From assembly GCF_003018235.1 (NCBI RefSeq), contig NZ_CP027439.1: DNA of 64,000 bases; one strand, 5' to 3'. Positions 36,001 to 39,000 of the stretch are shown here, piece by piece. A program made the position numbers. This DNA is from Escherichia coli. Lineage in GTDB: Bacteria > Pseudomonadota > Gammaproteobacteria > Enterobacterales > Enterobacteriaceae. Position 1 is the stretch's first letter. Every line of letters begins with the position of its first letter.

Positions 36001-39000
36001 AAGCGGCGGGCCCCGACCGGAGCCATTTTAGTTACAACACTCAAATACAACCACCGGAAAAACCCCGGTCCCGCGCAGAACTGAAACCACAATGCCCCTC
36101 CTCATAACTGAAAAGCGCCGCCGCCCCCGCCCAAAGGGCGGGAACAACATCGCTTTTAATTATGAATGTTGTAACTATACAACATCATTGCTGTCAGTAT
36201 TCTGGCTGGAAGTCCTCAGTACACGCTCGTAAGCGGCCCTGACGGCCCGCTAACGCGGAGATACGCCCCAACTTCGGGTAAACCCTCGTCGGGACCACTC
36301 CGACAGCGCACAGAAGCTCTTTCATGGCTGAAAGCGGGTATAGTCTGGCAGGGCTGGGGATGGGTAAGGTGAAATCTATCAATCAGTACCGGCTTACGCC
36401 GGGCTTCGGCGGTTTTACTCCGGTATCACATGTAACCACAGCGTGCCGCCTTCCATGCCGCTGGCGCGGCATATCCTGGTGACGATATCTGAATCGTTAT
36501 ATACTGCGTATATATGTGGTAATGACGGGGTGATAAATGGCACAGGTTAATATGAGTTTAAGAATTGACGCTGAACTGAAGGATGCTTTTATGGCCGCTG
36601 CAAAAAGCATGGACCGTAATGGCTCTCAGTTAATCCGGGATTTTATGCGCCAGACCGTGGAACGGCAGCATAATACCTGGTTCCGTGACCAGGTTGCGGA
36701 AGGACGTCAGCAACTCGAGCGCGGCGATGTGCTTCCCCATGACATGGTCGAATCTTCTGCTGCTGCATGGCGGGATGAAATGAGCAGGAAGGTTGCCGGT
36801 AAATGATGGAGATATTCTGGACCATGCTGGCCAGCCAGGCCGGACTGACTTGGGAAGGGCAGGCACACTCAGCGATCGCCGACGCACGGATGACGGCAGG
36901 TGTGGTAAACGCTATTGCTGCATATCATCTGGAACTACTGCAGGAACAGGCTCGGCTGAAAAACTTGAAAAGGATTATCTGGCTGAAGTGGCTAATTACA
37001 GTAACGACCGCTGGGAAGCACCGCAACGTGCCTCACGCCTGGCTGCCAGCGTAAAGCGTTACAAGACATCAGAAATGCTGCGCTTTATTCTTGCTACCAT
37101 TGCCTACGATCCCGATCCAGATTTAACCCCGCTGACTGTGAGACGTTTGTGCAAGGCATTGTTCGGCAGAACCGGAAGCCAGTGGCTGGTTGTTGAAGTT
37201 TTTGGGGAGAAGGGGCGTCAGCACAGCAGCGCGGACAGTAATCCGGAGATGGTGGAAAAAATGGCTGCCAGATATCGTCACGCCGCCGAACTACACTGGT
37301 CCGCAACGCTGGCAGAAATTGAACGGGTAAAGCGGCTTTATCAGACGAAAATTAAGAAATCCAAAAAAGAAGTGGGTTGACTGCCATTGTTATTCTTTTC
37401 CTTCATCATTAATGCTAATGTATGGTGCGTTAAGCGTACAATAATTTCGAATATCCAAACTGATCTCATACACGCTCGTAAGCGGCCCTGACGGCCCGCT
37501 TACGCGGAGATATGCCCCGGCGGCGGGTAACCTTCTTGCCGGGATTACTCCGACCGCGCACAGAAGCATTTTCATCGCTGACAGGCTGCATGGCCTCGCA
37601 GAGAGGGGAACTGGTGACATCCGGACAACCTACCGGCTTACGTCGGGCTTCGGCGGTTTTACTTTGGCAGCATATTACACCACAGCGTGCCGCCTTACAT
37701 GTCGCTGACGCGACATCTGTTAGTTATTACGTCAGAGGAATTATTGATCTTTACTCCAGATCTTCCTCGTCAATCTCCAGCCATCCACCATAAGCCGACT
37801 CGGTATCTTCCGTATCGTTTTGAGTCGTATCAGTATTGCGTAGAAAATTAAAAGCCGTCGCACCCAATTGATTTTCCACGTATTTGATAATGAGAATTTC
37901 ATATTTTGAATAGTTTACCGTATTTTTATTTTCCGATAGTGGAATATATCATTGTCAGCTCTGATTATATAAATAACAGATGAAACATTACCAGCAACGA
38001 ATGTAAAAATCATATCCAAATATATCTTTGGAAGAAATGAATAATAAGGAGGGGAGGCTAAATTCCATTATTAATATCAATGATTAATAATCGTGCCGGC
38101 TATCAACCGAATGATACTGTGTTAGAACTGCCTGTTTTCGATAGTCATAACGGTGCCAGTTCCATGGCTGAACGCGCCATGGAACTGGCACCAACCCACA
38201 TCCGGGATGGGGAAAAAAATCATCAGGATATCGTTGCGCTGCCATTAATGCTTCCCGTCTGCCATCAGAGCACCCGGTAAAGTAGGAATATCTTGCGTTT
38301 TGACCGTAAAATGCCGTGATCAAAACCCTAGTTGCCTGAGCAGTAAGATGGACACTGCGGTAAGCAAAATCTGTTCGCAACCGCGAATCTTTGCCAAAAG
38401 AACCATCGGCTACAGTATGTCCCATGTCAGTTGCTGAAGTAACAAAAGAACCATCTGTTATATGGGGGCATCCGCCAGCAGCACCGATTTCATCTGATAT
38501 TCGTCCACACAAACCACCGCAGCCAATCTGAAGAGAACGCTGACGCCAATTCTCTGTTGGTAAACGAACCTCAAAGCCAATCTGAGGAGCCAGACGCCCT
38601 GTAACAATGCAGACTTTACGGTTTTCATCCAGAGTCGCTTTCAGAACCTGACTTCCCTCCCCGGCAATAGAGGTTAAATCAGTTTGTTGTAGCGCGGAGC
38701 AATCAGTGACTGGATTTATTCCAGCCAAATCTTCATAGTTTTTGGGGGAAACTGGTGTCGCCGGGAAGTGCTTATTTGCGGATAATACGGATACAGGAAA
38801 AATGAGAGAGCCAGTAAAGAGCGCTAATGATATGAAGCACTTCAATTTTCTATTCATATATACCCCGTTTGTAAATGATGAGAGGGAAATATCACGCTAT
38901 TATATATTAACGCACAATTATGAAAAAATATGGAGTCAGCTCAGAATATCCACTGTATTACAGTGAATTCCTTCGATTAATTTCAGAACGAATGCCAGGA

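What the first reader, a model, noticed from the sequence alone, without database searches (positions are those of the whole stretch)
38084..38857. Truncated tannase/feruloyl-esterase gene beside the decarboxylase cluster
Only the first ~250 codons of a tannase-family esterase remain, including the catalytic-serine motif region. An esterase releasing phenolic acids next to a UbiD-type decarboxylase hints at an ancestral phenolic-ester degradation pathway that has been partly deleted.
Basis: inference. Interest (0 to 1): 0.3.

Follow-up and report, generated by a model that had tools for sequence, protein, structure and literature searches.

The report
Deletion-truncated tannase gene on plasmid
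This is the dead stump of a plant-phenolic esterase (tannase-family) gene on an E. coli F-type plasmid; a single 1,116-base deletion removed two thirds of it, while the neighbouring aromatic-acid decarboxylase genes are still intact. It is an ordinary pseudogene, but it marks a rarely seen mobile tannin-handling gene set.

Summary
ORF 38084-38857 (minus strand, 257 aa) matches Pfam Tannase (E=1e-41), but only over residues 82-214, which is profile positions 9-143 of 490.

Intact 584-aa orthologues exist on E. coli, E. albertii and E. marmotae plasmids. Against them the window has one clean 1,116-bp deletion, with its junction at 38215|38216. It removes codons 215-584, the stop codon and 3 further bases. 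So 214 tannase codons remain, not about 250. The last 43 codons are read-through into former 3' non-coding DNA.

The nucleophile Ser197 survives. The Asp423 and His461-Cys462 of the catalytic triad and the whole lid domain are lost. The otherwise invariant Gly200 is now Arg. The product cannot be an esterase.

The neighbouring genes are all full length: an AroY-type protocatechuate/gallate decarboxylase, UbiX, DUF554, Idi, and the divergent LysR and YhbP.

Tannase and this decarboxylase module are also linked in Mangrovibacter, Rahnella and an unidentified chromosome. This supports a two-step route of ester to hydroxybenzoate to catechol or pyrogallol. The closest chromosomal copies of the module (Pseudocitrobacter, Kosakonia) have no tannase, so the esterase was added and later lost.

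Interest is low.

The parts
38216..38857 (-). Retained 5' part of the tannase-family gene: codons 1-214. It includes a putative Sec signal peptide (about codons 1-27) and the first part of the alpha/beta-hydrolase core.
   Evidence: Pfam Tannase E=1.2e-41 over residues 82-214. It is 99.4% identical to nt 1-642 of the intact L011 gene. The signal peptide is inferred from the sequence MNRKLKCFISLALFTGSLIFPVSVLSA|NK and from low pLDDT over residues 1-40.
38258..38275 (-). Nucleophile-elbow motif, codons 195-200: G-C-S197-D-G-R. The last residue is Gly in all homologues.
   Evidence: Alignments A1 and A2: G195, C196, S197, D198, G199 and G200 are invariant in 14 full-length homologues. The window has AGA (Arg) where L011 has GGA.
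38213..38219 (.). Deletion junction (38215|38216) inside an A7/T7 run. 1,116 bp are missing relative to the intact loci.
   Evidence: blastn: window 38215|38216 corresponds to L001 8503|9620, L002 8324|9441 and L011 10759|9642. The junction sequences are shown. There is no microhomology: 3 A from one side abut 4 A from the other.
38084..38215 (-). Read-through tail of 43 codons plus TAA, translated from the former 3' untranslated flank of the tannase gene.
   Evidence: This stretch aligns with the DNA that starts 3 bp after the tannase stop codon in L011 and L001. The tail does not align meaningfully with the homologues in alignment A1, where its placement is spurious.
38152..38192 (-). A 17-bp perfect stem-loop that followed the ancestral tannase stop codon. 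It is possibly a terminator or stabiliser and now lies inside the read-through tail.
   Evidence: ViennaRNA fold, -44 kcal/mol for the 85-nt stretch. Two base pairs change on both sides among window, L001 and L011. It has no T-tract and was not called by the terminator scan.
38899..38926 (-). Promoter-like site (TTTTCA-16-TATAAT), 42 bp upstream of the ATG.
   Evidence: Consensus scan, 10 of 12 matches. This is weak: 1 site was found against 3.7 expected in shuffles. It lies inside the segment (up to 38941) that moves with the tannase gene in the inverted variant.
39023..39571 (-). idi, type-1 isopentenyl-diphosphate isomerase; full length.
   Evidence: NCBIfam equivalog NF002995, 250.9 bits against a cut-off of 127. 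The ORF has the same length as in the intact loci.
39662..40378 (-). DUF554 membrane protein; full length. It is a conserved partner of the UbiD-UbiX pair.
   Evidence: Pfam DUF554 E=1e-63. It is linked to UbiD-UbiX in Pseudocitrobacter, Kosakonia, Mangrovibacter, Rahnella and L008.
40396..40980 (-). UbiX-family flavin prenyltransferase (makes prFMN); full length.
   Evidence: NCBIfam NF004685, 260.6 bits against a cut-off of 188.
40991..42463 (-). AroY-type UbiD-family decarboxylase (protocatechuate/gallate type); full length.
   Evidence: phmmer E=1.9e-201 to 5ny5 (E. cloacae 3,4-dihydroxybenzoate decarboxylase), aligned end to end.
42629..43573 (+). Divergently transcribed LysR-family regulator (314 aa); full length.
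   Evidence: Pfam HTH_1 plus LysR_substrate. The same position and length are seen in the intact loci.
43705..44151 (+). YhbP-family protein (148 aa), part of the shared island.
   Evidence: NCBIfam NF002900, 245.7 bits against a cut-off of 176. Island homology with L011 runs from 37467 to 44276.

Best explanation
The ORF is a pseudogene stump. The intact ancestor on the plasmid carried a six-gene island. A LysR regulator was transcribed divergently from an operon encoding an AroY-type prFMN-dependent decarboxylase, the prFMN synthase UbiX, a DUF554 membrane protein, the isomerase Idi and, last, a 584-aa exported tannase-family serine esterase.

How the intact system most likely works (inferred):
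1. The esterase, in the periplasm, cleaves gallate or protocatechuate esters such as gallotannins, alkyl gallates and catechin gallates.
2. The free hydroxybenzoate enters the cell. DUF554 is the candidate carrier.
3. The decarboxylase converts it to pyrogallol or catechol.
4. UbiX, with Idi possibly supplying the prenyl donor, provides the cofactor.
5. LysR switches the operon on.

What happened in the window's plasmid lineage (shown): one 1,116-bp deletion without microhomology, between two short T/A runs, removed codons 215-584, the stop codon and 3 further bases. The remaining reading frame runs 43 codons into the old 3' flank.

Consequences: the product keeps the signal peptide and Ser197. 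It lacks the strand after the nucleophile helix, the whole lid domain, Asp423 and His461-Cys462, so it cannot be a hydrolase. After the deletion the stump collected mostly amino-acid-changing substitutions, including G200R at an invariant glycine. The decarboxylase part is untouched, so the plasmid can probably still decarboxylate free gallate or protocatechuate but can no longer release them from esters.
For: - Family: Pfam Tannase E=1e-41 covers only profile positions 9-143 of 490.
- Deletion: the coordinates agree against three independent intact loci, and the junction sequences were inspected.
- Lost catalytic residues: D423 and H461-C462 are invariant in the 14 full-length homologues of alignment A2. 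They align with the MHETase stretches 'YHGMSDAAFS' and 'PGMNHCSGG'.
- Fold: the AlphaFold model of the intact protein (pTM 0.79) places strand 216-220, the lid and strands 414-420 and 451-456 after the break. The model matches MHETase, AoFaeB and FoFaeC.
- Not an artefact: the same 257-aa product is on 7 independent contigs, and the closed plasmid pSCU-111-1 has the same junction.
- Decay after deletion: against the nearest intact allele (L011) the truncated lineage has 4 non-synonymous changes (D128G, A178V, G200R in the window, S191F in pSCU-111-1) and 1 synonymous change. Against L001, the dN/dS ratio is 1.6 in the stump and 0.10-0.56 in idi, DUF554 and ubiD.
- Neighbours intact: all other island genes are full length in the window.
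- Decarboxylase type: E=2e-201 to EcAroY. EcAroY converts protocatechuate (>99% in 1 h) and gallate (about 83% in 1 h) (PMC5656893).
- Linkage of tannase with UbiD-UbiX-DUF554 recurs at low sequence identity: L008 (tannase 61%, UbiD 78%), Mangrovibacter (46%, 88%), three Rahnella species and one MAG.
- Precedent: the two-step tannase plus gallate decarboxylase pathway of S. gallolyticus and L. plantarum (PMC4218992).
Against: - No enzyme assay exists for any member of this esterase clade. The closest characterised relatives (about 25-30% identity) are MHETase and fungal feruloyl esterases, not tannases in the strict sense.
- The nearest chromosomal copies of the decarboxylase module (Pseudocitrobacter, Kosakonia) have no tannase. 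The coupling is therefore facultative.
- The relaxed-selection signal rests on five substitutions.
- The promoter-like site is not above the shuffle expectation, so expression of the stump is unknown.
- The roles of DUF554, Idi and YhbP are inferred from linkage only.
Confidence: 0.9

Rival explanations
1. The esterase and the decarboxylase are only neighbours on a mosaic plasmid island. The intact esterase acted on other esters (feruloyl, chlorogenate or phthalate/MHET-like), and its loss says nothing about a shared pathway.
For: - The best solved relatives are MHETase and feruloyl esterases.
- The tannase segment behaves as a separate module. It is inverted in E. marmotae and LR890578.1.
- It is absent from the closest chromosomal modules.
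- Its nearest relatives (about 60%) are much more distant than those of UbiD (96%).
Against: - Tannase-family genes lie within 10 kb of AroY-like UbiD-UbiX(-DUF554) in at least five further loci of the 80 examined, plus L008, despite 40-55% protein divergence. By rough estimate, chance predicts well under one.
- All three PLSDB plasmids that carry the decarboxylase module also carry the tannase gene or its stump.
- AroY substrates (gallate, protocatechuate) are exactly the acids a tannase releases.
Confidence: 0.15
2. The 257-aa ORF is a functional shortened protein with a new role, for example an exported binding protein, rather than a pseudogene.
For: - The ORF is open, keeps its start codon, signal peptide and upstream region, and is conserved identically on 7 contigs.
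- RefSeq annotates it as an ordinary CDS, WP_169062070.1.
Against: - It breaks the alpha/beta-hydrolase core in the middle and lacks two of three triad residues.
- Its last 43 residues come from non-coding DNA that contains a 17-bp hairpin.
- Substitutions since the deletion hit invariant or nearly invariant positions (G200R, S191F).
- Identity among the 7 contigs reflects recent clonal spread: 99.98% over 14.9 kb.
Confidence: 0.03
3. The truncation is an assembly or sequencing artefact.
For: None found.
Against: The same junction is present in the closed plasmid pSCU-111-1 and in independent assemblies from NCBI and Logan.
Confidence: 0.01

Closest known systems
Tannase/feruloyl-esterase family (Pfam PF07519): Ideonella sakaiensis MHETase (6QGA), Aspergillus oryzae FaeB (3WMT), Fusarium oxysporum FaeC (6FAT), A. 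niger tannase (7K4O)
   Same: The intact orthologue shares the alpha/beta-hydrolase core with a large inserted lid. It has the Cys-Ser...Asp...His-Cys catalytic arrangement (C196-S197, D423, H461-C462) and a signal peptide. Sequence E-values are 1e-52 to 1e-21 and predicted-fold TM scores 0.65-0.80.
   Different: Identity is only about 25-30%, and the substrate is untested. The window copy stops at residue 214 and has lost the lid, Asp and His-Cys.
Tannase plus gallate decarboxylase pathway of Streptococcus gallolyticus (TanB, SgdCBD) and Lactiplantibacillus plantarum (TanB, LpdBCD)
   Same: An ester hydrolase and a UbiD/UbiX-type hydroxybenzoate decarboxylase are encoded close together and act in sequence, giving pyrogallol or catechol as end product (PMC4218992).
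   Different: - The Gram-positive tannases belong to a different, smaller esterase lineage and were not among the sequence hits.
- Those decarboxylases have a small D subunit. Here the gene order is C-B-DUF554-Idi, and the 10-90 bp intergenic gaps leave no room for a D gene.
- This locus is plasmid-borne in Escherichia.
AroY / KpdBCD protocatechuate decarboxylase of Enterobacter cloacae and Klebsiella pneumoniae
   Same: The UbiD here aligns end to end with EcAroY (E=2e-201) and has a UbiX partner.
   Different: The operon context differs: DUF554 and Idi follow UbiX, a LysR gene is divergent, and a tannase gene is appended. Activity has not been tested.

Membership tests
Tannase/feruloyl-esterase family (PF07519) | Significant match to the family profile | tested here: met
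   E=1.2e-41, 143.6 bits against a cut-off of 29.8. Only profile positions 9-143 of 490 are covered.
Tannase/feruloyl-esterase family (PF07519) | Nucleophile Ser in G-C-S-x-G, with the adjacent Cys | tested here: met
   G195-C196-S197-D198-G199 are present. The following invariant G200 is Arg in the window.
Tannase/feruloyl-esterase family (PF07519) | Catalytic Asp and His-Cys completing the triad and the Cys-Cys bridge | tested here: not met
   D423 and H461-C462 of the intact orthologue lie in the deleted codons 215-584. They are present in L001, L011 and L004.
Tannase/feruloyl-esterase family (PF07519) | Lid domain inserted in the hydrolase core | tested here: not met
   The model of the intact protein places the lid at about residues 221-413. 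All of it is deleted in the window.
Tannase in the strict sense (EC 3.1.1.20, gallate-ester hydrolysis) | Hydrolysis of gallotannins or methyl gallate | not testable with these tools
   Inferred only from linkage to an AroY-type decarboxylase.
Pseudogene (deletion-truncated) | Shorter than full-length orthologues because of an identifiable lesion | tested here: met
   A 1,116-bp deletion mapped against L001, L002 and L011.
Pseudogene (deletion-truncated) | Relaxed selection after the lesion | tested here: inconclusive
   4 non-synonymous and 1 synonymous changes in the truncated lineage, two of them at invariant or nearly invariant sites. The numbers are too small for a test.
AroY-type UbiD decarboxylase (neighbouring gene) | Close full-length similarity to characterised AroY | tested here: met
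   E=1.9e-201 to 5ny5, residues 1-488 aligned to 1-489. It scores below the NCBIfam VdcC cut-off, 457 against 650.
AroY-type UbiD decarboxylase (neighbouring gene) | Decarboxylation of protocatechuate or gallate with prFMN | not testable with these tools
   Known for EcAroY (PMC5656893) but not for this protein.

The most novel reading that the evidence does not exclude
The stump marks an undescribed mobile cassette of Escherichia F-type plasmids: LysR<->AroY-UbiX-DUF554-Idi(+YhbP)+tannase. In this reading the cassette is self-sufficient for handling tannins and hydroxybenzoate esters.

- DUF554 would be the missing gallate/protocatechuate carrier.
- Idi, and perhaps the FMN-fold protein YhbP, would feed prFMN synthesis.
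- The repeated independent lesions would reflect loss of selection when the host's diet or niche lacks tannins. These lesions are the tannase deletion here, the idi nonsense mutation, the lysR frameshifts, the ubiX deletion and the IS insertion.

The core module seems to have been lifted from the chromosomal idi-lysS locus of a Pseudocitrobacter- or Kosakonia-like enterobacterium, and the esterase was added afterwards.
Probability: 0.35. Interest if true: 0.45.

Novelty: new member of a known kind. Interest (0 to 1): 0.2.

Why it matters
The stump itself matters little. It is a correctly recognised pseudogene that RefSeq currently lists as an ordinary protein (WP_169062070.1), which is a small annotation error.

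The wider locus is of modest interest for four reasons:
- Escherichia plasmids can carry a complete esterase-plus-decarboxylase set for plant hydroxybenzoate esters, a trait usually associated with Streptococcus gallolyticus and lactobacilli.
- It links the uncharacterised DUF554 family, and an extra idi copy, to prFMN-dependent decarboxylases across several enterobacterial genera.
- It offers natural intact and broken alleles for a direct test.
- I found no paper describing it.

Tried and rejected
- Frameshift instead of deletion. I first suspected a slip in the A7 run. Alignment to intact loci shows a 1,116-bp gap instead.
- Microhomology or IS-mediated deletion. No repeat and no IS lies at the junction; only short T/A runs abut it.
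- Rfam scan of 35600-39100 at E<=1 gave no match.
- Promoter and terminator scan: one promoter-like site, not above the shuffle expectation. The 17-bp hairpin was not called as a terminator.
- NCBIfam has no model that matches the tannase, whether stump or full length.
- The scan of 100,044 species-representative genomes found no relative above 55% identity (best 53-55%, the 55% hit being a partial Tolumonas contig). The donor of the tannase gene remains unidentified. The organism of the 61%-identical locus L008 was not determined.
- Complete E. coli genomes: only 1 of 5,426 carries the locus, and that one has the truncated form. The intact forms came from draft assemblies and metagenomes.
- Literature searches for tannase+AroY/UbiX, DUF554+UbiD, UbiX+idi operon and tannase+E. 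marmotae found nothing on this locus.
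Full report
**Setting**

The window is part of an F-type conjugative plasmid. 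It carries TraI at 25382-30652, TraX, FinO, an IncFII RepA at 34751-35620 and the yacA antitoxin gene at 36537-36806.

The flagged ORF (38084-38857, minus strand, 257 aa) is the last gene of a co-directional row:
- a UbiD-family decarboxylase, 40991-42463;
- UbiX, 40396-40980;
- a DUF554 membrane protein, 39662-40378;
- Idi, 39023-39571.

A LysR regulator (42629-43573) is transcribed divergently, and a YhbP-family gene follows it (43705-44151).

**Checking the observation**

The ORF matches Pfam Tannase (PF07519) at E=1.2e-41. Only residues 82-214 match, against profile positions 9-143 of 490.

**Exact nature of the lesion**

megablast against PLSDB found three Escherichia plasmids with this region:
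- pSCU-111-1 (NZ_CP051728.1) has the same short ORF.
- E. albertii pEA36_2 (NZ_CP117592.1) has a 1,755-bp gene encoding 584 aa.
- E. coli LR890578.1 also has a 584-aa gene.

Pairwise blastn shows that window 38215|38216 corresponds to L001 8503|9620, L002 8324|9441 and L011 10759|9642. The window therefore lacks 1,116 bp.

In the gene's orientation the deletion begins after codon 214 (…Y-P-D-D-F). It ends 3 bp beyond the stop codon. The junction lies in a run of seven A (38213-38219): three come from one side and four from the other. There is no shared repeat and no IS element.

The reading frame then continues for 43 codons through the old 3' flank to a TAA at 38084-38086.

**What was lost**

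An alignment of 14 full-length homologues shows these invariant residues: G195-C196-S197-D198-G199-G200, D423 in W-H-G-x-x-D, and H461-C462. They align with the catalytic Ser, Asp and His-Cys stretches of MHETase.

An AlphaFold model of the intact protein (pLDDT 74.7, pTM 0.79) matches MHETase, AoFaeB, FoFaeC and A. niger tannase with TM 0.65-0.80. The model puts strand 190-195 and the nucleophile helix 197-209 just before the break. The next core strand (216-220), the lid (about 221-413) and the strands that carry Asp and His come after it.

The stump therefore keeps the signal peptide and the serine. It cannot form the fold or the triad.

**Decay after the deletion**

Compared with the nearest intact allele (L011), the truncated lineage carries these changes:
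- D128G and A178V, shared by the window and pSCU-111-1;
- G200R, in the window only;
- S191F, in pSCU-111-1 only;
- one synonymous change.

G200 is invariant and S191 nearly so. Against L001 the dN/dS ratio of the stump is 1.6, compared with 0.10-0.56 in idi, DUF554 and ubiD. This fits neutral drift, but the counts are too small for a formal test.

**Not an artefact, and a minority allele**

The identical 257-aa product is encoded on 7 contigs from independent assemblies. One of them, L017 (GCA_022441185.1), is 99.98% identical to the window over 14.9 kb.

Intact alleles are much more common. P0002 is indexed in 116 blocks of the collection. The DUF554 variant P0127 is indexed in 128 blocks, and in every context shown it is followed by a 584-aa tannase gene.

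Among 5,426 complete E. coli genomes only SCU-111 has the locus, in the truncated form. RefSeq annotates that stump as a normal CDS without a pseudogene flag.

**State of the rest of the island**

In the window all other island genes are full length. Other plasmids carry different lesions:
- an idi nonsense mutation leaving 59 aa (L012, L014, L016);
- lysR frameshifts (L012, pEA36_2);
- a 51-bp gap in ubiX (pEA36_2);
- an IS3-family insertion between ubiD and lysR, together with an inverted tannase module (E. marmotae KE138678.1, LR890578.1).

L011, L013, L015 and L103-L106 appear fully intact. The tannase deletion is thus one of several independent hits on this locus.

**What the intact system most likely does**

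The UbiD aligns end to end with Enterobacter cloacae AroY (E=1.9e-201). EcAroY decarboxylates protocatechuate (>99% in 1 h) and gallate (about 83% in 1 h) (PMC5656893).

S. gallolyticus and L. plantarum degrade gallotannins in two steps. A tannase acts first, then a UbiD/UbiX-type gallate decarboxylase encoded nearby, and pyrogallol is the end product (PMC4218992).

By analogy, the exported esterase here would free gallate or protocatechuate from plant esters and the cytoplasmic AroY-type enzyme would decarboxylate it. UbiX supplies prFMN. The roles of Idi (prenyl donor), DUF554 (transport) and LysR (induction) are inferred from linkage only.

**Comparative support for the coupling**

- A chromosomal locus from an unidentified bacterium (L008) has LysR<->UbiD-UbiX-DUF554-MerR-tannase. 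Its tannase is 61% and its UbiD 78% identical to the plasmid proteins.
- Of 80 tannase loci taken from species-representative genomes, several have the module nearby:
  - Mangrovibacter plantisponsor has a tannase gene convergent with idi-DUF554-UbiX-UbiD and a LysR gene. Its UbiD is 88% and its tannase 46% identical.
  - Three Rahnella species have UbiD-UbiX-DUF554 6-8 kb away.
  - One MAG has UbiD-UbiX 1.6 kb away.
  - Two Lonsdalea strains have DUF554-YhbP-idi at the edge of the fetched flank.
- Many relatives of the esterase come from plant-associated bacteria: Agrobacterium from walnut, Brenneria, Lonsdalea, Rahnella and the Pseudomonas syringae group.

**A qualification on 'ancestral'**

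The closest chromosomal copies of the decarboxylase module are in Pseudocitrobacter faecalis (UbiD 95.7%, DUF554 94%) and Kosakonia (UbiD 90.2%, DUF554 89.9%). There LysR<->UbiD-UbiX-DUF554-Idi sits beside lysS-prfB-recJ-dsbC-xerD-fldB, and there is no tannase gene. From my own knowledge, that is the neighbourhood of idi in E. coli K-12.

Nucleotide homology with the window stops at 39070, inside the 3' end of idi. The esterase gene was therefore joined to an existing decarboxylase module in the plasmid lineage and later destroyed in the window's sub-lineage.

This also shows that the module can exist without a linked esterase. The window's plasmid probably still acts on free acids.

**Verdict**

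The object is an ordinary deletion pseudogene of a known family. The surrounding cassette appears undescribed in the papers searched and is a reasonable target for simple biochemical tests, but nothing here is mechanistically surprising.

Noticed in passing
window 36537-37054 (and 44196-44266): The yacA antitoxin gene has lost its toxin partner. Relative to pSCU-111-1 the window lacks 988 bp (yacB plus most of a 3'-5' exonuclease pseudogene), and the junction falls at a shared GCCAGCCAGG. This leaves a chimeric ORF (36803-37054) made of 12 yacB codons fused to the exonuclease C-terminus. A 71-bp yacB-like piece lies at the far end of the island.
   Followed up: partly
window 36206-36472 and 37464-37724: An element of about 260 bp is present twice (about 78% identity) and occurs in more than 3,000 IncF plasmids. 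Homology between the island and the intact locus L011 ends at 37467, the outer edge of the second copy. There is no Rfam match.
   Followed up: partly
window 38152-38192: A perfect 17-bp stem-loop lies just after the ancestral tannase stop codon. Two base pairs are changed on both sides among window, pEA36_2 and L011, which suggests a conserved structure. It has no T-tract and now lies inside the read-through tail.
   Followed up: partly
L001, L004, L012, L014, L016 (related plasmids): The same island carries different inactivating lesions in different plasmids: an idi nonsense mutation, lysR frameshifts, a 51-bp ubiX gap, an IS3-family insertion between ubiD and lysR, and inversion of the tannase module.
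   Followed up: yes
L101, L102, L107, L108 (Pseudocitrobacter, Kosakonia chromosomes): LysR<->UbiD-UbiX-DUF554-Idi sits next to lysS-prfB-recJ-dsbC-xerD-fldB. The idi in the plasmid operon therefore looks like the captured chromosomal idi of the donor. It is only 65-68% identical in DNA to E. coli's own idi.
   Followed up: partly
window 39662-40378; L008, L029-L032, L059, L101, L107: DUF554 follows UbiD-UbiX in every enterobacterial locus examined. No paper in the library mentions DUF554 together with UbiD.
   Followed up: partly
NZ_CP051728.1 4331-5104 (L100): RefSeq lists the truncated ORF as an ordinary 'tannase/feruloyl esterase family alpha/beta hydrolase' (WP_169062070.1) without a pseudogene flag.
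   Followed up: yes
L008 12091-13256; L059 8595-9775: An HbpS-like gene and a short-chain dehydrogenase gene accompany the tannase gene in both distant chromosomal loci. They are absent from the plasmid island.
   Followed up: no
L038 4984-5319 (Affinibrenneria salicis): Only a 112-aa piece with 71% identity to the UbiD lies 4.7 kb from an intact tannase gene. This would be the opposite pattern of decay to the window.
   Followed up: no
window 44573-45735: A two-ORF IS3-family transposase (99 aa plus 274 aa) directly follows the island. pSCU-111-1 has only a partial copy there.
   Followed up: no
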